Of a stretch of 64,000 bases of DNA, positions 6,461-13,501 are shown piece after piece. Under the pieces are notes generated by a model. That model saw only the letters and a list, made by a program, of their open reading frames with translations. It was not told where the DNA came from and did not search any database. A program made the position numbers and the translations under genes. Position 1 is the first letter of the stretch. Each line of letters starts with the position of its first letter. The stretch spans positions 243-64,242 of the forward strand of contig CAZNWB010000001.1 of the NCBI GenBank assembly GCA_964576535.1. Reading direction: 5' to 3'. This DNA comes from an uncultured bacterium. Its GTDB lineage: Bacteria; Methylomirabilota; Methylomirabilia; Methylomirabilales; 2-02-FULL-66-22.

Positions 6461-7456
6461 ATGTCAAACCCGATTCGAGTCATCCAGTACGGGCTGGGCC
6501 CCATCGGCTGCGCCGTGGCGCGTCACGTGGTGGAACGCGCGGGACTGGAACTGGTCGGGGGCGTGGACATCGATCCGGCCAAGATCGGCAAAGACGTGGG
6601 CGAGGTCATCGGCCTCGGGCGCCCGCTGGGCATTCCGGTGGACGCCACACTCGGACAGCTCCTGGCACGGACCAAAGCCGACGTGGTCCTTCACACCACC
6701 AGCTCGTACTTTGCCCTGTTTACGGATCAGATCCTTGAAATCCTGCAGGCAGGGTTGGACGTTGTTTCCACGTCCGAGGAACTGTCCTTTCCGTGGCTGG
6801 CCCACTCGAAAGAGGCGGGCGAAATCGATCGCGTCGCCCGGAAGGCCGGCAAGACGGTACTGGGGACCGGTGTCAATCCTGGCTTCCTGATGGATTCGCT
6901 GCCGCTGAATCTGACCGCGATCTGCCAGCGGGTGGATCGCATTGACGTGACCCGGCGGATGAACGCCTCAAACCGCCGGGGTCCCTTTCAGGCCAAGATC
7001 GGATCCGGCATGACGGTGGATGCCTTCACCGCCAAGATGACTCAGGGTCGGATGGGTCATGTGGGCCTGCCCGAGTCCATGGGCATGGTCTTTCACACGC
7101 TGGGGAAGAAGCTGGTCCGATACGAGTCGAGCGTGGAGCCGGTGCTGGCCGAGCGCTTCGTGAAGACCGATTATTTCGAGGTGAAAGCCGGTCAGGTGCG
7201 GGGCCTGAAGCAGGTGGCGCGGGGCTATACCGATCGAGGTGAGTTCATGACCTTGACCTTCGTCGCCGCCTTGGGCGAGGACGGGGAAGGGGACGTCATC
7301 CAGATCACGGGCCGCCCCAACCTGGAGGCCAAGCTCACGGGGACCAACGGCGACATCGCCACGGTGGCCATCACCGTCAACGCCATTCGCCGCGTCAAAG
7401 AGGCTGGGCCGGGCCTGGTCACGATGTGCGACCTGCCCATCGTCACCCATTGGTAG
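6461..7456 (+). CDS. DapB-like NAD(P)-dependent oxidoreductase / amine dehydrogenase family protein
   Basis: An AAGGAG RBS precedes the start. The N-terminal Rossmann motif reads IRVIQYGLGPIGCAVARHVV. Size and layout resemble the dihydrodipicolinate-reductase-like amine dehydrogenase family, but substrate is not inferable. Confidence 0.55.
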   Translation: MSNPIRVIQYGLGPIGCAVARHVVERAGLELVGGVDIDPAKIGKDVGEVIGLGRPLGIPVDATLGQLLARTKADVVLHTTSSYFALFTDQILEILQAGLDVVSTSEELSFPWLAHSKEAGEIDRVARKAGKTVLGTGVNPGFLMDSLPLNLTAICQRVDRIDVTRRMNASNRRGPFQAKIGSGMTVDAFTAKMTQGRMGHVGLPESMGMVFHTLGKKLVRYESSVEPVLAERFVKTDYFEVKAGQVRGLKQVARGYTDRGEFMTLTFVAALGEDGEGDVIQITGRPNLEAKLTGTNGDIATVAITVNAIRRVKEAGPGLVTMCDLPIVTHW

Positions 7457-7493
7457 TCGGCGAAGGCTCATGCAGTGAGCAGGCCAGCGACAA

Positions 7494-7528
7494 GGGGGGT
7501 AGGCCCTACAGGCCTGCCCCCCTTCTTT
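7494..7528. terminator. bidirectional rho-independent terminator between convergent genes
   Basis: The stem is GGGGGGTAGGCC / GGCCTGCCCCCC with a 5-nt loop, followed by TTCTTT. It lies between the stop at 7456 (+) and the stop at 7535 (-). Confidence 0.6.
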
Positions 7529-7534
7529 GGGGAT

Positions 7535-8092
7535 CTACTTCTGCGGTGTTGGCGGGACGGGGAAGGGGACTTGATTCTTGACAGGAGGAATACTGCGCAA
7601 GTACGACCAGATTGATTTCAGATCCTCGTCGGTCGCCGCCTTAATATCCTCCCAGGGCATGGGCGGCAGGATGTCGCGGCCGGTGGGCTGACCTTGATGC
7701 TTTCCGGTCCGCATTGAACGGATGAAGGATTCCTCGCTCCATTCGGCGATCCCCGTCTCCTTGTGCGGGGTGAGGTTGGCGGCGAAGCTGACCCCCCAGG
7801 GACCCGCCCAGGCGGTCAGCATGGCAGTGGTGAGTGCCAGGGCACTCCGCTGCTTCAGATCGTCTGGTGTCCACGTCGGATAGGGCAGGTCCGCCGGATG
7901 GCCGGAAAGCAAGCGCGCCGTATCGAGCGCTGGCGCGCCCCCTGGTCCTGGGACCTTCGGTGTGTGGCAATCGTGGCAGCCCATGATGGTCACCAGGTAC
8001 TTGCCACGTTCGACAGGATCGGGCTTCTTCTCACAGCCAAGGATAAGCACCCCCAGGTTCACCGCAAGCACGAATCCGATCAGTCTTCGCAT
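7535..8092 (-). CDS. lipoprotein c-type cytochrome
   Basis: The start is an ATG at 8092. There is a lipobox (LGVLILGC) and a single CxxCH heme motif (CHDCH). The 252-aa ORF in the track is an upstream extension. Confidence 0.75.
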   Translation of the reverse strand: MRRLIGFVLAVNLGVLILGCEKKPDPVERGKYLVTIMGCHDCHTPKVPGPGGAPALDTARLLSGHPADLPYPTWTPDDLKQRSALALTTAMLTAWAGPWGVSFAANLTPHKETGIAEWSEESFIRSMRTGKHQGQPTGRDILPPMPWEDIKAATDEDLKSIWSYLRSIPPVKNQVPFPVPPTPQK

Positions 8093-8126
8093 CGTTTGCC
8101 CCTTTCGGCTCCAGAGACAGCCGGGT

Positions 8127-8885
8127 TTACCCGGTGCTGGCGGCGAGGATGAGGGGAGCGACCTCGGCGACCCAGGCGGACTCGTGTGCTTGACGCCGTG
8201 GCGAACGACGATAGGCACAATCGCGCATGTCACACGAGCGACAGGGAGATCCACCGGCTCCCATGATCGCGTCACGCCCGATGCCCACGGCAAAGGAAAT
8301 GGATTTCCGCGGCGTCATGATGCAGTAGGGATTCAGGTGCACCCCGATGCTGCCGGTGGATAGGAGAGCAAAGATCTTCGGCTGTTCCTCAATTGCCCAC
8401 CGCGCATACCCCGGGCTCTCGCGAGGCGTTACCTTGAGGCCCTGGGCCAGCCGGTCCTCACATATCCTGCGGTGCACGGCCTCCCCCAGCGCCTCCACCG
8501 CCACCGATCCCAGGCTGTCCAGCATGTAGGCGACGGGGAATTCTCTCGCCGCAAACAGGGCCTCGATACGATTCTCCAGAGAATCGCCAATGGTGCAGAG
8601 GGCAAAGCCCAGCGCAGAAATCCTTCCCCACCGCCCAGGATTCTCCCGGATCAAGAGTTCTGACCCATCTGAAAGACGGACACCTGAGTCGTCGGCCGAA
8701 TCCACCGGGAATTCTTGGTAGAGCCACCGCGGCTGGAAGACCTGCCGGGCCTCGACCATGGCAGCGCGGAGGATACCCAGGACCTCGGAAGTGGGGATGT
8801 CTGAGGCTCGCCGGTACCCCTGAAGCCGCAAGACCTCTTGAGGATCAACCTCGAACGTCAGCGCAACCTTCTGCTCATTGCTCAT
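8127..8885 (-). CDS. stand-alone methionine-synthase reactivation (AdoMet-binding, Met_synt_B12-like) domain protein
   Basis: The motif RESPGYARWAIEEQPKIFALL...GVHLNPYCIMTPRKSISFAVGIG matches the pattern of the MetH activation domain. A C-terminal Cys cluster (CRSCDMRDC) is also present. Confidence 0.65.
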   Translation of the reverse strand: MSNEQKVALTFEVDPQEVLRLQGYRRASDIPTSEVLGILRAAMVEARQVFQPRWLYQEFPVDSADDSGVRLSDGSELLIRENPGRWGRISALGFALCTIGDSLENRIEALFAAREFPVAYMLDSLGSVAVEALGEAVHRRICEDRLAQGLKVTPRESPGYARWAIEEQPKIFALLSTGSIGVHLNPYCIMTPRKSISFAVGIGRDAIMGAGGSPCRSCDMRDCAYRRSPRRQAHESAWVAEVAPLILAASTG

Positions 8886-8915
8886 GGCTCATGGTTCATT
8901 GCTCATGGCTCATGG
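8874..8915 (-). repeat. 21-nt tandem duplication spanning the start codon of the 8127-8885 gene
   Basis: The minus strand reads CCATGAGCCATGAGCAATGAA followed by CCATGAGCCATGAGCAATGAG (20/21 identical). This creates several upstream ATGs, including an in-frame mini-ORF MSNEP-stop just before the main MSNEQK start. Confidence 0.8.
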
Positions 8916-8945
8916 CAGGAAGCAGGATGAGCCAAGAGCTATGAG

Positions 8946-9863
8946 CTACATGATCCGGCGCTTATGGACAACCTCGGCGATCCGGCGGATGTGGGCCGGT
9001 GTGCTGCCGCAGCAGGCGCCGACAATGTTCGCTCCAGCATTCAGGATGGCCGGATATCCGGCGGCCATCTCCTCCGGGGGCAATTCGTAGATCGTCCGGC
9101 CCCCCACAATGCGAGGCAGTCCCGCATTGGGATAGGCGATCAGCAGGCCGTCGCTTACACCGCGCATTCCCCGAAGGATGGCCGCGGCCCGCTCGGGTCC
9201 CCCGTCCCCGCAATTGCATCCCACCACGTCCGCCCCGGCCTCAAAGAGAACCTTGGCCGACTCTTCCGGGCTGGTTCCCCACATCGTCCGGTCCCGGCGC
9301 TGCTCTTGCTCCCATTGGAAGAACATGGTGCACATCACCGGGAGGCCCGTGCTTTCCTTGGCGGCGCGGATCGCTACTACGGCCTCCTCTGGGTACATCA
9401 TCGTCTCGACCGCGAACAGGTCCACCCCGCCCTCGGCCAGGGCCAGCACCTGCTCACGAAAGTTGGCGTAGAACTCCTCCTCGCTCACGTCGCCCAACGG
9501 TTCGAAGGCATCGGGCAGGTGCCCCGTGGGGCCGATGGAACCCGCCACGTACTTGCCGGGAGGGCACGCGCTCCGCGCCAGCTTTGCCCCCAGGACGTTC
9601 AGCTCCCGCGTCCGGTCGGCGAGACCGTATGCGGTAAGCTTGAGCCGGGTGCCCCCGAAGGTGTTCGTCTCGACGAAATCGCTCCCCGCCTCGAAGTACG
9701 CCTTGTGGATGTTCCGGACCACGTCGGCGCGGGTGTCGTTCCACAGCTCCGGGCAGGCCCCGTCCGTGAGGCCTGCCTCGAAGAGCATGGTGCCCATCGC
9801 CCCGTCGAAGATGAGGATTTCTGATCTCAGCCGCTCCAGAAACTCCTTCCCCCGAGGCTGCAT
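8946..9863 (-). CDS. homocysteine S-methyltransferase domain protein (MetH N-terminal module-like)
   Basis: The zinc-ligand contexts GCNCG and GACCGS are present, along with the family N-terminus LIFDGAMGTML. The track start at 9869 is a GTG. An ATG at 9863 sits a better distance from GAGGTGG. Confidence 0.8.
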   Translation of the reverse strand: MQPRGKEFLERLRSEILIFDGAMGTMLFEAGLTDGACPELWNDTRADVVRNIHKAYFEAGSDFVETNTFGGTRLKLTAYGLADRTRELNVLGAKLARSACPPGKYVAGSIGPTGHLPDAFEPLGDVSEEEFYANFREQVLALAEGGVDLFAVETMMYPEEAVVAIRAAKESTGLPVMCTMFFQWEQEQRRDRTMWGTSPEESAKVLFEAGADVVGCNCGDGGPERAAAILRGMRGVSDGLLIAYPNAGLPRIVGGRTIYELPPEEMAAGYPAILNAGANIVGACCGSTPAHIRRIAEVVHKRRIM

Positions 9864-9990
9864 CCTCACGCCACCTCAATTCAAAATTTTCTCGCGAAGA
9901 CGCCAAGGGCGCTAAGGGGGGTAGTCCTTTTTCACCCTCGTGTGCGTTCTTTGCGTCTTTGCGAGAGAATGGTTTTTCATTGAGCGCCGA

Positions 9991-10671
9991 TTACGGCTTG
10001 TCGTTTTTCCTCACCAGGGCCTTGGCCTTGACCACGGCCGCGGTCGACTCCCTGGCGTAGCCGTCCCCGCCGATCTCGTCGCAGAAGGCCTGGTTGACCG
10101 GGGCGCCGCCCACCATCACCTTGACCCGATCACGAAGCCCGTCCCGCATCAGGGCCTCGATGGTTCGCCGCATGGCCGGCATCGTCGTCGTCATCAGGGC
10201 GGAGATGCCTACGATGCTGGCGTCTTTTTCTTTGACGGCCTCCACGAACTTTTCGGGCGCCACGTCCCGCCCCAGGTTGTGCACCGTGAAGCCGGCTCCC
10301 TCCAGCATCATCGCCACCAGATTCTTGCCGATGTCGTGCAGGTCCCCCTGGGCGGTTCCGATCACCACGGTGCCCAGGTGATCGTCCACGGCCGTCTTGG
10401 TCAGGAGTGGCTTCAGCAGGTCCAGGCCGGCATACATCGCCCGGGCCGACAGCAGGACCTGCGGGACGTAGTACTCGTTCCGGCGGAACTTTTCCCCGAC
10501 CACGTCCATGCCTGGGATGAGTCCCTTGAAGATGATGGTCTTGGGCTCGATTCCCTCGTCCAGGGCCCGCCGGGTCATCTCTCCTACCACAATGTGGTGC
10601 CCCAGGATAATGGCCCTCGCCATGGCCGGGTAGTTGAATGTCTCGTGTCCCACTCTATCCTTTCCAATCAA
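9991..10671 (-). CDS. corrinoid (cobalamin)-binding protein, B12-binding_2 + B12-binding domains
   Basis: The DxHxxG motif is present (GDLHDIGKNLV), followed by a Rossmann-like B12 domain. The start is uncertain: the track start is a TTG, and GTG/ATG alternatives lie downstream. Confidence 0.8.
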   Translation of the reverse strand: MIGKDRVGHETFNYPAMARAIILGHHIVVGEMTRRALDEGIEPKTIIFKGLIPGMDVVGEKFRRNEYYVPQVLLSARAMYAGLDLLKPLLTKTAVDDHLGTVVIGTAQGDLHDIGKNLVAMMLEGAGFTVHNLGRDVAPEKFVEAVKEKDASIVGISALMTTTMPAMRRTIEALMRDGLRDRVKVMVGGAPVNQAFCDEIGGDGYARESTAAVVKAKALVRKNDKP

Positions 10672-10738
10672 GTAGTTATGTTGTTTCCCTCAGATCGTGT
10701 ATCAAGAACATCGATCGCCGTTCGAGGGCGTGCATGAT

Positions 10739-12019
10739 TCACTCCCAGGTCCGCTCATCTACGATCTTCTTCGCATCTGCAGGCAGCGTCCCGCCGGGAA
10801 CCACCTCGACCCGGGCCCGAAGCTTGATGCCGTCACGCACGCGCGCCTCCAGGCGTGCGGCGAGGTCTCCCCCCGCGGCCGGACCCTCGACCCGGAGCGT
10901 CAGGTCGTCCTCGAAGCCCTTGCGGCGGACCACGAGCTGATACCGGGTCACCTCTGCCATCTCGGCCATGACTGCGTCGAGCTGGCCGGGGTGCACGAAC
11001 ATCCCGCGGATCTTGGTGGCGTCGTCCGTCCGACCCAGGATCCGGGTGAGACGCGCCGTGGTCCGGCCGCATGCACACACCGATGGGTCCAGCACCGAGA
11101 GATCTCCCGTCCCGAACCGGATCAACGGGTATACCGTGTTGAACGTGGTCACCACGACCTCGCCGGCCGCTCCATCCGGTACCGGATGTCCCGTCTCGGG
11201 ATCCGCGATCTGAACAATCATATCCTCGGACAGGTGCATCCCCGAATGCTGCGGACACTCATAGGCGATGAGTCCCAGATCGGCGCTGGCGTAGGCCTGG
11301 GTGACGTTCACGCCGTATCGCTCTCGCATCGTGGCTCGCAGGGATTCCGGCAGCATGCCGCCCGAGACGAAGGCCACCTCGAGCGAGAGGTCCTGGAGGG
11401 GCTTGATTCCCATCTCCTCGGCCCGCTGCAGGATCGTGTGGAGGAAACTTGGCGTCCCCACGTACCCGGTCGCCTGGACGTGACGGAGCACTTGCACCTG
11501 CGTCTCGGTGTTCCCACCCCCCATTGGGATGACGGCACAGCCGAAGGCGGCCAGGCCCTCGTCGCACATGCTGCCAGCCGGCGTCAGATGGTAGGCGAAG
11601 GTGTTGATGGCGATATCGCCCCGGCGGAATCCGGCCCCATACATGGCCCGCGCCATACGCCAGTAGTTTGGCCCGGTCCCTTCCGGATCGTAGATCGGGC
11701 CCGGGGAGATGAAGATGCGCTGCAGGGCCTGGGGCGCGACCGCCACCAAACCGCCGAAAGGCGGATCCTTCTCCTGGAGCGCCGGCAGCTCTCGCTTTCG
11801 GAGGGGCGGGAGGCGAAGCAGATCGTCGGGTTCGCGAAGTTGCTCAAGGGAAACGCCAGCGGCCGCCAATCGCTGCCCCAAATGGGACGTGTGGCTCACC
11901 GCCTGCCGCAGGATGTCCCGCAGGCGCTCTTGGAGAAAATGGCGCCGGGCATCCGGCGCCATCGTCTCCATGGCCCGATCGTAGAAACCAGGACTCCGGT
12001 CAATCCCACCCCGGCCCAC
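10739..12019 (-). CDS. phenylacetate-CoA ligase-like (PaaK / F390 synthetase family) adenylating enzyme
   Basis: The N-terminus reads FYDRAMETM...RRHFLQERL. The family layout is present (TGYVGTPSF, YASADLG, C-terminal ...KIVDERTWE). The start is a GTG behind GGAGGGGG. Confidence 0.7.
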   Translation of the reverse strand: MGRGGIDRSPGFYDRAMETMAPDARRHFLQERLRDILRQAVSHTSHLGQRLAAAGVSLEQLREPDDLLRLPPLRKRELPALQEKDPPFGGLVAVAPQALQRIFISPGPIYDPEGTGPNYWRMARAMYGAGFRRGDIAINTFAYHLTPAGSMCDEGLAAFGCAVIPMGGGNTETQVQVLRHVQATGYVGTPSFLHTILQRAEEMGIKPLQDLSLEVAFVSGGMLPESLRATMRERYGVNVTQAYASADLGLIAYECPQHSGMHLSEDMIVQIADPETGHPVPDGAAGEVVVTTFNTVYPLIRFGTGDLSVLDPSVCACGRTTARLTRILGRTDDATKIRGMFVHPGQLDAVMAEMAEVTRYQLVVRRKGFEDDLTLRVEGPAAGGDLAARLEARVRDGIKLRARVEVVPGGTLPADAKKIVDERTWE

Positions 12020-12082
12020 AGTCTTCCCCCTCCGGCTCGACAGTTCTCCTGGCTCTCGGCTCTCAACTCTAGGCTCTGAGAA

Positions 12083-12649
12083 TCACTTCTTCGGGAAGCT
12101 ATCCTCGAAGGGGACGATCATGCTGGCACCATTGAAGATGGCCACCCCCTCGCTCACCTTAACGCCGAAGCTGAAGTCTCCGATCTTCTCCCACCACTCC
12201 TTCACGACGTCACCAGGCTTCAAGCCCAAGGCGAGGACCCGCTGACCCGAGGTCACGGCGAGGTTGCCCGGGGCGATCAGCGAGTCGAAAACCGCGATCA
12301 CCCGAAGCTCGTTGCTGGTCTTGCCGGGAATGTACATTGTCTCGTACACCGTGGGCGTGTTGAGGGCGAAGTACTCGCCTGGCTTGGCCTCGAACGAAAC
12401 GGTGAACTTCATCTCCTCCAAGGCCACCGGGGTGTCATTGGGATTGCTCACTTTGTAGACGAACGCCAGCACCAGGGGCACGCGAGCCGGAGGCGCCGCG
12501 TAGGGGAAGTAGCTGGCCACCTCCACCCGCTCCAACTTCACCCGTGGGGGCTGAGGCGTCCCACCGGCCCCCGGCATGGTCGCACAACCAACCAGAGCCA
12601 GGGTGACCAGACAGAGGATAACAAGGACCCCTTTCTCACGCGTCCGCAT
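12083..12649 (-). CDS. lipoprotein of unknown function
   Basis: The lipobox reads LVTLALVGCATM, and a [12 protein letters not shown] precedes the start. The body looks beta-rich. A possible LEA_2/WHy-like fold is only an impression. Confidence 0.5.
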   Translation of the reverse strand: MRTREKGVLVILCLVTLALVGCATMPGAGGTPQPPRVKLERVEVASYFPYAAPPARVPLVLAFVYKVSNPNDTPVALEEMKFTVSFEAKPGEYFALNTPTVYETMYIPGKTSNELRVIAVFDSLIAPGNLAVTSGQRVLALGLKPGDVVKEWWEKIGDFSFGVKVSEGVAIFNGASMIVPFEDSFPKK

Positions 12650-12679
12650 CGTTCTCCCCCCTTTTCCTCGACGATTGCG

Positions 12680-13501
12680 TCAGGTCAGCCATCGTTTCCG
12701 TCGCTTATAATGTTTCACCGCCCGAAAGCTTTTCCGGACCCCCAGATCGGTGAGCCCCAGGTAGAAATCTCGGATGTCCGGGTTCTCCCGCAGCTTCTCG
12801 GCCGGCCCGTCCATCACCACCCGACCGGTCTCCAGGACATAGGCGTACGGGGCCGTGGCCAGCGCCAGCTTCACGTTCTGCTCCACCAATAGGATGGAGA
12901 TCCCCTCCTCCCGGTTCAGGCGGGTGATGATGTCAAAGATCTCCTTGATCAGCATGGGGGCCAGTCCCATAGAGGGCTCGTCCAGCAGCATGACCTTCGG
13001 CCGCGCCATCAGGGCCCGGCCGATGACCGTCATCTGCTGTTCCCCACCGGAAAGATACCCAGCCTGGACGTCCCGGCGATCCTTCAGCCGCGGGAAGTAG
13101 TCGTAGACTGCTTCCAGTCCACGCCGCAGGCTGGCCCCGTTGCCTCTGAGGTGGGCACCCACCCGGAGGTTCTCCTCGGTCGTGAGGTGCTCGAAGACCC
13201 GGCGTCCCTCGATGACCTGTACGATCCCCAGGGCCGCGATCTCCTCGGCCGACTTCCGGTCGATCCGCTGGCCGAGGAATTCGATGCTGCCATCGGTCAC
13301 CTCGCCGTCCTCGTGGCGCAAGAGGCCGGAGATGGCTTTCAGGGTGGTGCTCTTGCCAGCTCCGTTGGCGCCCAGCAGGCCGACGATCCCGCCCTGGGGC
13401 AGCTCGAGCGAGACCCCCTTGAGGGCCAGGATCACCTCGTGGTACATGACCTCGATGTTGTTGATCCGCAGGGCGCTCCCCGGCGATTGCACCGCAGTCA
13501 T
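12680..13501 (-). CDS. livF: branched-chain-type ABC transporter ATP-binding protein
   Basis: Walker A is GANGAGKST, the signature is LSGGEQQ, and Walker B is MLLDEPS. Confidence 0.85.
   Translation of the reverse strand: MTAVQSPGSALRINNIEVMYHEVILALKGVSLELPQGGIVGLLGANGAGKSTTLKAISGLLRHEDGEVTDGSIEFLGQRIDRKSAEEIAALGIVQVIEGRRVFEHLTTEENLRVGAHLRGNGASLRRGLEAVYDYFPRLKDRRDVQAGYLSGGEQQMTVIGRALMARPKVMLLDEPSMGLAPMLIKEIFDIITRLNREEGISILLVEQNVKLALATAPYAYVLETGRVVMDGPAEKLRENPDIRDFYLGLTDLGVRKSFRAVKHYKRRKRWLT

What the first reader, a model, noticed from the sequence alone, without database searches (positions are those of the whole stretch)
8127..10671. Split methionine-synthase-like trio without any pterin/methyl-THF-binding module
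Three consecutive genes encode the cobalamin-binding module (DxHxxG), the homocysteine-binding zinc module (GCNCG, GACCGS) and the AdoMet-dependent reactivation module (RESPGYARW...). Together these are three of the four MetH modules, encoded as separate polypeptides. No methyltetrahydrofolate-binding (pterin) domain is encoded here or anywhere else in the window, so the methyl donor for the corrinoid is not identifiable. The trio closes a long array devoted to organic-acid uptake and CoA activation and follows a PaaK-like ligase, so it may use a non-folate methyl donor or serve methyl transfer in catabolism.
Basis: partly seen in the sequence, partly recalled or inferred. Interest (0 to 1): 0.55.

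Follow-up and report, generated by a model that had tools for sequence, protein, structure and literature searches.

The report
Folate-free split methionine synthase trio
Three neighbouring genes encode the B12-carrier, homocysteine and repair parts of vitamin-B12 methionine synthase as separate proteins with no folate part; this is a real, conserved module of a kind already predicted in the literature, and its methyl donor is still unknown.

Summary
On the minus strand lie a corrinoid protein (9991-10671), a MetH-type homocysteine/zinc module (8946-9869) and a TM0269-like SAM-binding reactivation protein (8127-8885). No pterin-binding domain lies in the window.

The trio is not a decayed metH copy. 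The genome has a canonical four-module metH on another contig, stand-alone metF and folP. The trio keeps every catalytic motif and is conserved, in the same gene order, in most Methylomirabilota genomes searched.

In other lineages the same homocysteine-module/reactivation pair sits beside MttB-, MtmB- or MtaA-type methyltransferases. A paralogous set in this genome sits with an MtmB-family enzyme and a RACo activase. The best reading is therefore the acceptor-and-repair half of a modular B12 methyl-transfer system that makes methionine from a non-folate donor. The donor enzyme is encoded elsewhere.

The best donor candidate is a DUF169-MtaA fusion with a thiol-type zinc site, which lies near the trio in many relatives. 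The PaaK/Liv neighbourhood is specific to this genus.

The idea was published as an untested hypothesis in 2022 (PMC9324843). A related split MetH was shown genetically in roseobacters (PMC12478193). This scan has met such clusters often on other DNA. This is a new member of a known kind.

The parts
9991..10671 (-). Stand-alone corrinoid (B12-carrier) protein, MtgC/MtbC-like. The ORF starts at TTG 10671; the real start is probably the GTG about 18 nt downstream (near 10653), judging from where orthologues begin.
   Evidence: PF02607 plus PF02310; TIGR02370 218.4 bits (cut-off 215.3); DLHDIG motif; 73-89% identical orthologues in the same position in all 22 Methylomirabilota-type loci examined.
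8946..9869 (-). Stand-alone homocysteine-binding, zinc-dependent methyltransferase module (MetH Hcy-module / MtgE-Bmt type).
   Evidence: PF02574 241 bits over the full length; best PDB matches are MetH Hcy modules (8g3h 183.5, 8ssc 179.2, 1q7m 176.7 bits), against BHMT at 66.6 and MmuM at 65.3 bits; the NC and CC zinc-ligand cysteines are invariant.
8127..8885 (-). TM0269-like stand-alone MetH reactivation (SAM-binding) protein with an extra C-terminal CxxCx4C motif (C215, C218, C223).
   Evidence: PF02965 20.2 bits, below the cut-off; family profile against 1j6r (TM0269) E=2e-28. AF2 model pLDDT 90.7; fold hits are 1j6r, 8ssd, 6bdy and 1msk. G159 invariant, P158 80/81, S157 71/81, R155 69/81 and Y160 59/81 in the RxSPGY motif; C215 and C218 invariant and C223 in 99% of 81 homologues.

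Best explanation
The trio is the methyl-acceptor and maintenance half of a modular cobalamin-dependent methyl-transfer system that ends in methionine. There are three steps.

1. A substrate-specific methyltransferase encoded outside the window methylates the Co(I) form of the corrinoid protein P0003. This step is inferred.

2. The MetH-type homocysteine module P0002 uses its Cys3-zinc site to move the methyl group from methyl-Co(III)-P0003 to homocysteine, giving methionine. This is inferred from homology.

3. When the cofactor is oxidised to Co(II), the TM0269-like protein P0001 restores it by reductive methylation with S-adenosylmethionine. Its invariant CxxCx4C motif may hold a metal or Fe-S centre that takes part in electron input. 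This is inferred, and the metal site is speculative.

The donor is not methyl-tetrahydrofolate delivered through a classical pterin-binding module. The only such domains in the genome are FolP and the resident full-length MetH.

The most likely donor-side enzyme is one of the genome's five MtaA/CmuA-family methyltransferases. The leading candidate is the DUF169-MtaA fusion on contig C88. It follows the same family-level distribution as the trio across the phylum and lies 0.2-18 kb from it in many relatives. It keeps the His-Cys-Cys zinc site typical of thiol-type members, which points to a methylated sulfur compound as the donor.

Housekeeping methionine synthesis in this organism is covered by metF plus metH, so the trio is an additional route that captures methyl groups into methionine.
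For: Module identities.

Inventory of this genome:
- Canonical metH on C183 (TIGR02082, 1313 bits, cut-off 1011), and the C22 pterin hit is DHPS/FolP.
- metF is present and no MetE was found.
- No MttB; one MtmB-family gene; five MtaA/CmuA-like genes, none a hemE equivalog.

Paralogous locus on C39: Hcy module (74% identical to P0002), DMGDH-like gene, non-Pyl MtmB-family gene, corrinoid protein, activation-like protein, RACo.

The pair is portable:
- HcyMT-Act-MTTB in a Glassbacteria contig.
- CP-HcyMT-Act followed by a 500-aa gene in another contig.
- HcyMT-Act-CP-URO-D.
- Act-CP-URO-D.
- RACo followed by Act.

Conservation:
- P0001 homologues occur in 190 of 251 Methylomirabilota genomes. 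A minority of these hits are weak matches to MetH's own activation domain.
- The order CP-HcyMT-Act holds in all 22 Methylomirabilota-type loci examined (20 genome loci plus metagenomic L016 and L018).
- In L018 the three genes have 4-nt overlapping junctions.

DUF169-MtaA fusion:
- It is present in 192 of 251 genomes with the same family-level pattern as the trio (f7 0/20, f8 0/2, f9 147/159, f4 5/6, f10 20/21).
- It lies on the same contig close to the trio in many genomes. In G012 of the window's own genus it is 168 bp away and convergent.
- HxC and the second Cys align with the MtaA zinc ligands of 4ay7.

Literature:
- The same module set with an MttB homologue was hypothesised to make methionine from an unknown donor (PMC9324843).
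Against: - No donor methyltransferase is encoded in the window, and none of the candidates has been linked to this corrinoid protein by any experiment.
- In this genome the DUF169-MtaA gene is on a different contig.
- Synteny within one bacterial family (f9) may reflect shared ancestry and not function. Related genomes are not independent observations.
- In most f9 loci the trio's closest conserved neighbour is a YitJ-like Hcy-domain/MTHFR fusion. That hints at a folate link and not a catabolic donor.
- The intergenic gaps in the window (about 60-120 nt) are looser than in the overlapping versions.
- P0001 fails the Pfam gathering score.
- Nothing shows that the Cys motif binds a metal.
- No riboswitch or other regulatory clue was found.
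Confidence: 0.6

Rival explanations
1. The homocysteine module works alone as a Bmt/BHMT-like enzyme. It methylates homocysteine directly from betaine, DMSP or S-methylmethionine without cobalamin. The adjacent corrinoid and activation proteins serve other methyltransferases.
For: The NCBIfam bacterial BHMT model scores 212 bits and the YitJ model 261 bits, both above the metH model at 188 bits. The roseobacter stand-alone module (Bmt/MtgE) makes methionine directly from DMSP and betaine in vitro (PMC12366255). The 74%-identical paralogue on C39 lies beside a dimethylglycine-dehydrogenase-like gene.
Against: All those NCBIfam scores are below their cut-offs (338 and 453). Against solved structures P0002 is far closer to MetH Hcy modules than to BHMT or MmuM. 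The corrinoid-Hcy-activation order is invariant across the phylum and the genes overlap in L018. The same roseobacter protein is also the Hcy subunit of a split B12 enzyme, so the two roles do not exclude each other.
Confidence: 0.15
2. The trio is a second, folate-dependent split methionine synthase. Its methyl-THF-binding partner is not a classical pterin-binding domain, or the methyl-THF site of the resident MetH or another protein acts in trans.
For: In most loci examined across the phylum the trio is followed by a shikimate-kinase-like gene and a YitJ-like Hcy-domain/MTHFR fusion, the enzyme that makes methyl-THF. A three-part split MetH with a separate pterin subunit is proven in Phaeobacter and Ruegeria.
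Against: The only PF00809 matches in this 96.5%-complete genome are FolP and full-length MetH. This genome has a plain metF and no YitJ-like fusion. No non-pterin methyl-THF:corrinoid methyltransferase is known. More distant relatives of the pair sit with MttB-, MtmB- or MtaA-type enzymes instead.
Confidence: 0.12
3. The system runs the other way. The Hcy-type module loads the corrinoid from a sulfonium or thioether donor such as S-methylmethionine, and an MtaA-type enzyme then methylates a thiol or metalloid acceptor.
For: MtsA-type enzymes are known to catalyse both half-reactions with methyl thioethers (own knowledge; cited). The DUF169-MtaA fusion has a thiol-type zinc site.
Against: Methyl transfer from methylcobalamin to homocysteine thiolate is strongly favourable, and no PF02574 member is known to methylate a corrinoid (own knowledge). 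Across the phylum the genomic context is methionine and C1 metabolism.
Confidence: 0.05
4. The trio is a decaying remnant of a duplicated metH.
For: A complete metH exists elsewhere in the genome.
Against: All motifs are intact, GC3 is typical of coding sequence, and same-genus orthologues are 70-87% identical. The trio is conserved in most of the phylum. P0003 is closer to methyltransferase-cognate corrinoid proteins than to the resident MetH, with which it shares 32% identity.
Confidence: 0.02

Closest known systems
[quoted passage not shown] 2022, Environ Microbiol, PMC9324843; hypothesis only)
   Same: It has the same three MetH-derived stand-alone modules, lacks a pterin module, and co-exists with a normal multidomain MetH. 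The window's activation protein family includes members from exactly such clusters (L025).
   Different: No MttB-family or other donor methyltransferase lies next to the trio here, and PF06253 was not found in this genome. In this phylum the recurrent partners are a DUF169-MtaA fusion and a YitJ-like fusion.
Three-part split MetH / MtgBCDE of Phaeobacter inhibens and Ruegeria pomeroyi (10.1101/192971; PMC12478193; PMC12366255)
   Same: The corrinoid protein and the homocysteine module are separate proteins. The corrinoid protein is shared between methionine synthesis and demethylation of a methylated substrate.
   Different: The roseobacter system has a separate pterin-binding subunit (MtgD) and no PF02965 protein; it relies on RamA plus DUF1638 for reactivation. 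Here there is no stand-alone pterin subunit, and a TM0269-like activation protein is present.
Thermotoga maritima MetH (TM0268) with its separate activation protein TM0269 (PDB 1j6r)
   Same: P0001 is a full-length homologue of TM0269 by profile (E=2e-28) and by fold.
   Different: TM0268 still carries Hcy, pterin and B12 modules in one chain. By the alignment, TM0269 (214 aa) ends before the region holding the CxxCx4C motif, whose cysteines are invariant or nearly so in the P0001 family.
Core methionine synthases MesA/MesB/MesC (PMC7857596, PMC7005905)
   Same: They make methionine without folate from a methyl-corrinoid donor.
   Different: Those enzymes are MetE-fold proteins (PF01717). Here the catalytic module is MetH-type (PF02574), and no PF01717 gene was found in this genome.
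Methanogen MtaABC / MtsA-type corrinoid methyltransferase systems
   Same: The architecture is MT1, corrinoid protein, then a zinc thiol-methylating MT2. The genome holds five MtaA/CmuA-family genes.
   Different: The acceptor module is a homocysteine domain and not a coenzyme M methyltransferase.

Membership tests
Methyltransferase-cognate corrinoid protein (TIGR02370; PF02607+PF02310) | Score above the curated cut-off, with a cap domain plus a Rossmann B12 domain | tested here: met
   218.4 bits against cut-off 215.3; both Pfam domains score above their cut-offs.
Methyltransferase-cognate corrinoid protein (TIGR02370; PF02607+PF02310) | DxHxxG His-on cobalamin-binding motif | tested here: met
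   DLHDIG in P0003.
Homocysteine S-methyltransferase domain (PF02574), MetH Hcy-module type | Full-length domain match above the cut-off | tested here: met
   241.3 bits, profile positions 1-283 of 283.
Homocysteine S-methyltransferase domain (PF02574), MetH Hcy-module type | Three zinc-ligand cysteines (one in the NC motif, two in the CC motif) | tested here: met
   C220, C286 and C287 are invariant in an alignment with the MetH and YitJ-like domains.
Homocysteine S-methyltransferase domain (PF02574), MetH Hcy-module type | Methylcobalamin:homocysteine methyl-transfer activity | not testable with these tools
   This needs an enzyme assay.
MetH activation (reactivation) domain, PF02965 / TM0269-like | Pfam gathering score | tested here: not met
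   20.2 bits against cut-off 25, and only the C-terminal half matches.
MetH activation (reactivation) domain, PF02965 / TM0269-like | Full-length homology and the same fold as a solved member | tested here: met
   profile against 1j6r, E=2e-28, 200 of 232 profile positions. Foldseek places 1j6r at E=4e-13 (TMt 0.75), followed by the MetH reactivation domains.
MetH activation (reactivation) domain, PF02965 / TM0269-like | RxxxGY S-adenosylmethionine-binding motif | tested here: met
   RESPGY in P0001. Across 81 homologues G159 is invariant, P158 is kept in 80, R155 in 69 and Y160 in 59. The motif aligns with the same motif in this genome's own MetH.
Cobalamin-dependent methionine synthase MetH (TIGR02082 equivalog) | One chain with Hcy, pterin, B12 and activation modules, scoring above 1010.85 bits | tested here: not met
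   the three proteins score 188, 125 and 20 bits, and there is no pterin module. The genome's real metH is on C183 (1313 bits).
Bacterial betaine--homocysteine S-methyltransferase (NF005718) | Curated equivalog cut-off | tested here: not met
   212.2 bits against cut-off 338.
Split B12 methionine synthase with a non-folate donor module (PMC9324843 cluster) | Adjacent stand-alone Hcy module, corrinoid protein and activation protein | tested here: met
   The order is conserved in relatives.
Split B12 methionine synthase with a non-folate donor module (PMC9324843 cluster) | Donor-side methyltransferase (MttB/MtgB homologue) in the same cluster | tested here: not met
   Searches show none in the window. 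One search finds no PF06253 in the genome. The candidate donor enzymes lie on other contigs.
Roseobacter MtgBCDE / three-part split MetH | Separate pterin-binding subunit (MtgD, PF00809) | tested here: not met
   the only PF00809 matches are FolP and full-length MetH.
Roseobacter MtgBCDE / three-part split MetH | RamA/RACo-type ATP-dependent activase in the genome | tested here: met
   RACo genes on C39 and C19, neither of them in the window.

The most novel reading that the evidence does not exclude
Two linked ideas remain open.

First, the P0001 family (more than 1600 sequence clusters at E<=1e-10, with an invariant CxxCx4C motif that TM0269 and MetH lack) could be a metal- or Fe-S-containing, ATP-independent, SAM-driven reactivase for stand-alone corrinoid proteins in general.

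Second, in Methylomirabilota the trio together with the DUF169-MtaA thiol-type methyltransferase could form a pathway that strips the methyl group from a methylated sulfur compound (methanethiol, DMS or a methylthio-metabolite) and places it directly on homocysteine. In many genomes of family f9 the trio is preceded by a persulfide-dioxygenase/rhodanese fusion, which could deal with the released sulfide.
Probability: 0.2. Interest if true: 0.65.

Novelty: new member of a known kind. Interest (0 to 1): 0.35.

Why it matters
Rokubacteria-type Methylomirabilota are abundant soil and subsurface bacteria without cultured representatives. A conserved extra route into methionine that bypasses folate would change how their one-carbon, sulfur and B12 economy is modelled. 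It would also add to the growing evidence that MetH is one fixed version of a mix-and-match family of corrinoid methyl-transfer modules. The family-wide cysteine motif in the stand-alone reactivation protein has not been studied. It could reveal a second, ATP-independent way of keeping corrinoid proteins active. None of this has been tested biochemically in any organism.

Tried and rejected
- A riboswitch or other RNA element near the trio (SAM or B12): only chance-level miRNA-type matches below their thresholds.
- Promoter and terminator scan of 7000-13000: nothing above the shuffle expectation, so the operon limits are unresolved.
- Fused forms of the activation protein. A 'longer' search found none. 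The one 536-aa representative, P0124, has no Hcy domain. The large 'open frame' values are not fusions, because the Hcy and activation genes lie in different frames in L058.
- The idea that the trio is the only methionine synthase in genomes that lack MetH. Five high-quality trio genomes have FolP as their only pterin domain, but all carry MetE-type (PF01717) genes.
- A functional link to the PaaK-like ligase and Liv array: this neighbourhood is confined to the window's own genus.
- MttB as the donor in this genome: no PF06253 was found.
- A literature search for DUF169 together with corrinoid methyltransferases gave nothing relevant.
- I could not measure cysteine geometry in the AF2 model. 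The motif region has low confidence (pLDDT 55-76).
Full report
**What is in the window**

Three co-directional minus-strand ORFs have coding-type GC3.

- P0003 (9991-10671) has the B12 cap and B12-binding domains. It passes the NCBIfam model for methyltransferase-cognate corrinoid proteins (218.4 bits, cut-off 215.3) and scores higher on the MtgC/MtbC models than on MetH. It carries DLHDIG.
- P0002 (8946-9869) matches PF02574 over its full length (241 bits). The zinc cysteines (NC and CC motifs) are invariant in an alignment with MetH and YitJ-like domains.
- P0001 (8127-8885) only grazes PF02965 (20.2 bits, cut-off 25). A profile of 81 homologues, however, matches the stand-alone Thermotoga activation protein TM0269 (PDB 1j6r) at E=2e-28 over the whole length. 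An AlphaFold model (pLDDT 90.7, pTM 0.88) has 1j6r and the MetH reactivation domains as its top fold matches. The SAM-binding motif RxSPGY is conserved.

Downstream lies a cytochrome c lipoprotein gene (7535-8092).

**The rest of the genome**

The window lies on contig C1 of a 3.72-Mb assembly that is 96.5% complete. PF00809 has two matches only.

- One on C22 is dihydropteroate synthase (TIGR01496, 226.6 bits).
- One on C183 is a canonical four-module metH (TIGR02082, 1313 bits against 1011), cut by the contig end.

A stand-alone metF is present and no MetE-type gene was found. Ordinary methionine synthesis is therefore already covered, and the trio is an extra system.

The genome also holds:
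- three methyltransferase-type corrinoid proteins, on C1, C15 and C39;
- one non-pyrrolysine MtmB-family gene;
- no MttB;
- five URO-D-fold genes that are all MtaA/CmuA-like and not hemE equivalogs;
- two RACo/RamA-type activases, on C39 and C19.

**The paralogous locus on C39 (L003)**

Its gene order is: aldehyde dehydrogenase; Hcy module (74% identical to P0002); dimethylglycine-dehydrogenase-like protein; MtmB-family methyltransferase; corrinoid protein (40% identical to P0003); activation-like protein (33% identical to P0001, without the cysteine motif); RACo. This shows the same kind of Hcy module working in a complete donor, carrier, acceptor and activase set within this organism.

**Relatives**

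P0001 has close homologues mostly in NC10/Methylomirabilota MAGs. Within the phylum, 190 of 251 genomes match. By family the counts are f9 150/159, f4 5/6 and f10 19/21, but 0/15 and 0/20 in two Methylomirabilis-type families. A minority of the 190 are weak matches to MetH's own activation domain. These tallies include four unpublished genomes (G043, G075, G216, G217); no specific claim here rests on them alone.

In all 22 Methylomirabilota-type loci I annotated (20 genome loci plus the metagenomic contigs L016 and L018), the order corrinoid protein, Hcy module, activation protein is kept. In L018 the three genes overlap by 4 nt. The PaaK/Liv neighbourhood is found only in the window's own genus (L016, L075, L076). 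Elsewhere the trio is followed in most loci by a shikimate-kinase-like gene and a YitJ-like Hcy-domain/MTHFR fusion. In 8 of 20 genome loci it is preceded by a metallo-beta-lactamase/rhodanese fusion, which I read as a persulfide-dioxygenase type (that reading is inference). The link to organic-acid catabolism is therefore not supported, while a link to methionine, C1 and sulfur metabolism is.

**A portable module**

More distant members of the P0001 family sit in:
- HcyMT-Act-MTTB (Glassbacteria);
- CP-HcyMT-Act followed by a 500-aa gene;
- HcyMT-Act-CP-URO-D;
- Act-CP-URO-D;
- RACo followed by Act.

An exhaustive search finds 4482 clusters at E<=1e-3 and 1650 at E<=1e-10, almost all stand-alone proteins of 200-250 aa. 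The activation-like protein is thus a general accessory of corrinoid methyltransferase systems. The Hcy module is one of several possible acceptor modules.

**A candidate donor enzyme**

A DUF169-MtaA fusion (C88:9855-11858 in this genome) occurs in 192 of 251 genomes. Its family-level pattern matches that of the trio. Comparing the coordinates, it lies on the same contig 0.2-18 kb from the trio in several dozen genomes. Examples are G012 (168 bp, convergent), G042 (3.4 kb), G203 (6 kb) and many f9 genomes at 10-14 kb. It is also near the trio in the metagenomic contigs L016 and L018.

Its MtaA part aligns with M. mazei MtaA (4ay7) and keeps the HxC and second-Cys zinc ligands. By the rule summarised in PMC10418091, such a site indicates a thiol- or selenol-type substrate.

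This evidence is suggestive only. Related genomes share synteny by descent, and in this genome the gene is on another contig.

**The cysteine motif**

C215 and C218 are invariant and C223 is present in 99% of 81 homologues. R226 is also nearly invariant. Further cysteines at positions 97, 142 and 188 are each kept in 53-64%. By the alignments, TM0269, the genome's own MetH and the C39 paralogue lack the motif. A metal or Fe-S site is a reasonable guess, but it was not tested.

**Mechanism**

The best reading is as follows. A donor-specific methyltransferase encoded elsewhere methylates Co(I)-P0003. P0002 passes the methyl group to homocysteine. P0001 repairs Co(II) by SAM-dependent reductive methylation. 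Every step is inferred from homology and gene context; none is shown.

The rivals are:
- a Bmt-like direct reaction by P0002, given that the roseobacter homologue does both (PMC12366255);
- a folate-dependent system with an unrecognised methyl-THF partner, prompted by the YitJ-like neighbour;
- a reversed flow of methyl groups;
- gene decay, which is effectively excluded.

**Comparison with what is known**

The idea of a corrinoid protein, an Hcy module and an activation protein combined with a non-folate methyltransferase was published as a hypothesis for MttB-type clusters, in MAGs that also keep a normal MetH (PMC9324843). A split MetH whose corrinoid protein also serves glycine-betaine demethylation has been shown genetically in Ruegeria and Phaeobacter.

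Earlier notes of this scan report many such clusters on other DNA, including URO-D/MtaA-partnered ones. I checked the 2022 paper myself.

The window's case is therefore a new member of a known, still untested kind. Its particular features are the absence of a donor gene in cis, its phylum-wide conservation in Methylomirabilota, and its recurrent linkage to a DUF169-MtaA fusion.

Noticed in passing
G000 contig C39:11270-21513 (L003:2270-12513): A complete paralogous system: aldehyde dehydrogenase, Hcy module (74% identical to P0002), DMGDH-like protein (DAO-FAO_M-GCV_T), a non-pyrrolysine MtmB-family methyltransferase (457 aa, no in-frame stop), corrinoid protein, activation-like protein lacking the Cys motif, and RACo. 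The only characterised non-Pyl MtmB demethylates tetramethylammonium and choline (PMC13044021). This locus may be a B12-dependent quaternary-amine-to-methionine route.
   Followed up: partly
window 8886-8945 (minus strand, between the Hcy module and the activation gene): A tandem duplication of a roughly 21-nt unit containing ATGAGC repeats lies just upstream of and overlaps the P0001 start. An inverted AGCTCAT element lies further upstream. I read it; another first-stage note (e1-2378912) also flags it. I did not analyse it.
   Followed up: no
G000 contig C88:9855-11858; also L016:18117-19949, L018:14472-16322, L060:16553-18403: A DUF169 domain fused to an MtaA/CmuA-type methyltransferase with a His-Cys-Cys zinc site. 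It is present in 192 of 251 Methylomirabilota genomes. DUF169 has no known function, and I found no paper linking it to corrinoid enzymes.
   Followed up: partly
G000 contigs C170, C85, C18, C15, C88: All five URO-D-fold genes of this genome score as MtaA/CmuA-like, and none reaches the hemE model. No classical uroporphyrinogen decarboxylase was seen, even though the genome encodes c-type cytochromes. An alternative haem pathway or an assembly gap is possible.
   Followed up: no
L060:6821-8230, L058:6613-8010, L018:6903-8276: In family f9 a metallo-beta-lactamase/rhodanese fusion (probably a persulfide-dioxygenase type) lies directly upstream of the corrinoid gene in 8 of 20 genome loci. In L060 it overlaps the corrinoid gene.
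   Followed up: partly
G203, G201, G199, G214 (relatives): Some Rokubacteria-type genomes that lack MetH carry 3-10 MetE-fold (PF01717) genes of about 350 aa. These include adjacent pairs, which suggests core or split MetE paralogue families.
   Followed up: no
window 7535-8092 (minus strand): A small lipoprotein-type c-type cytochrome (signal peptide with a lipobox-like LILGC, and a CHDCH haem motif) lies directly downstream of the trio. The longer ORF 7535-8293 overlaps the end of P0001, so the real start is most likely the ATG at 8092.
   Followed up: partly
G000 contig C19:35409-37193: A second, orphan RACo/RamA-type activase (40% identical to the C39 copy), with no panel methyltransferase gene hitting the same contig.
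   Followed up: no
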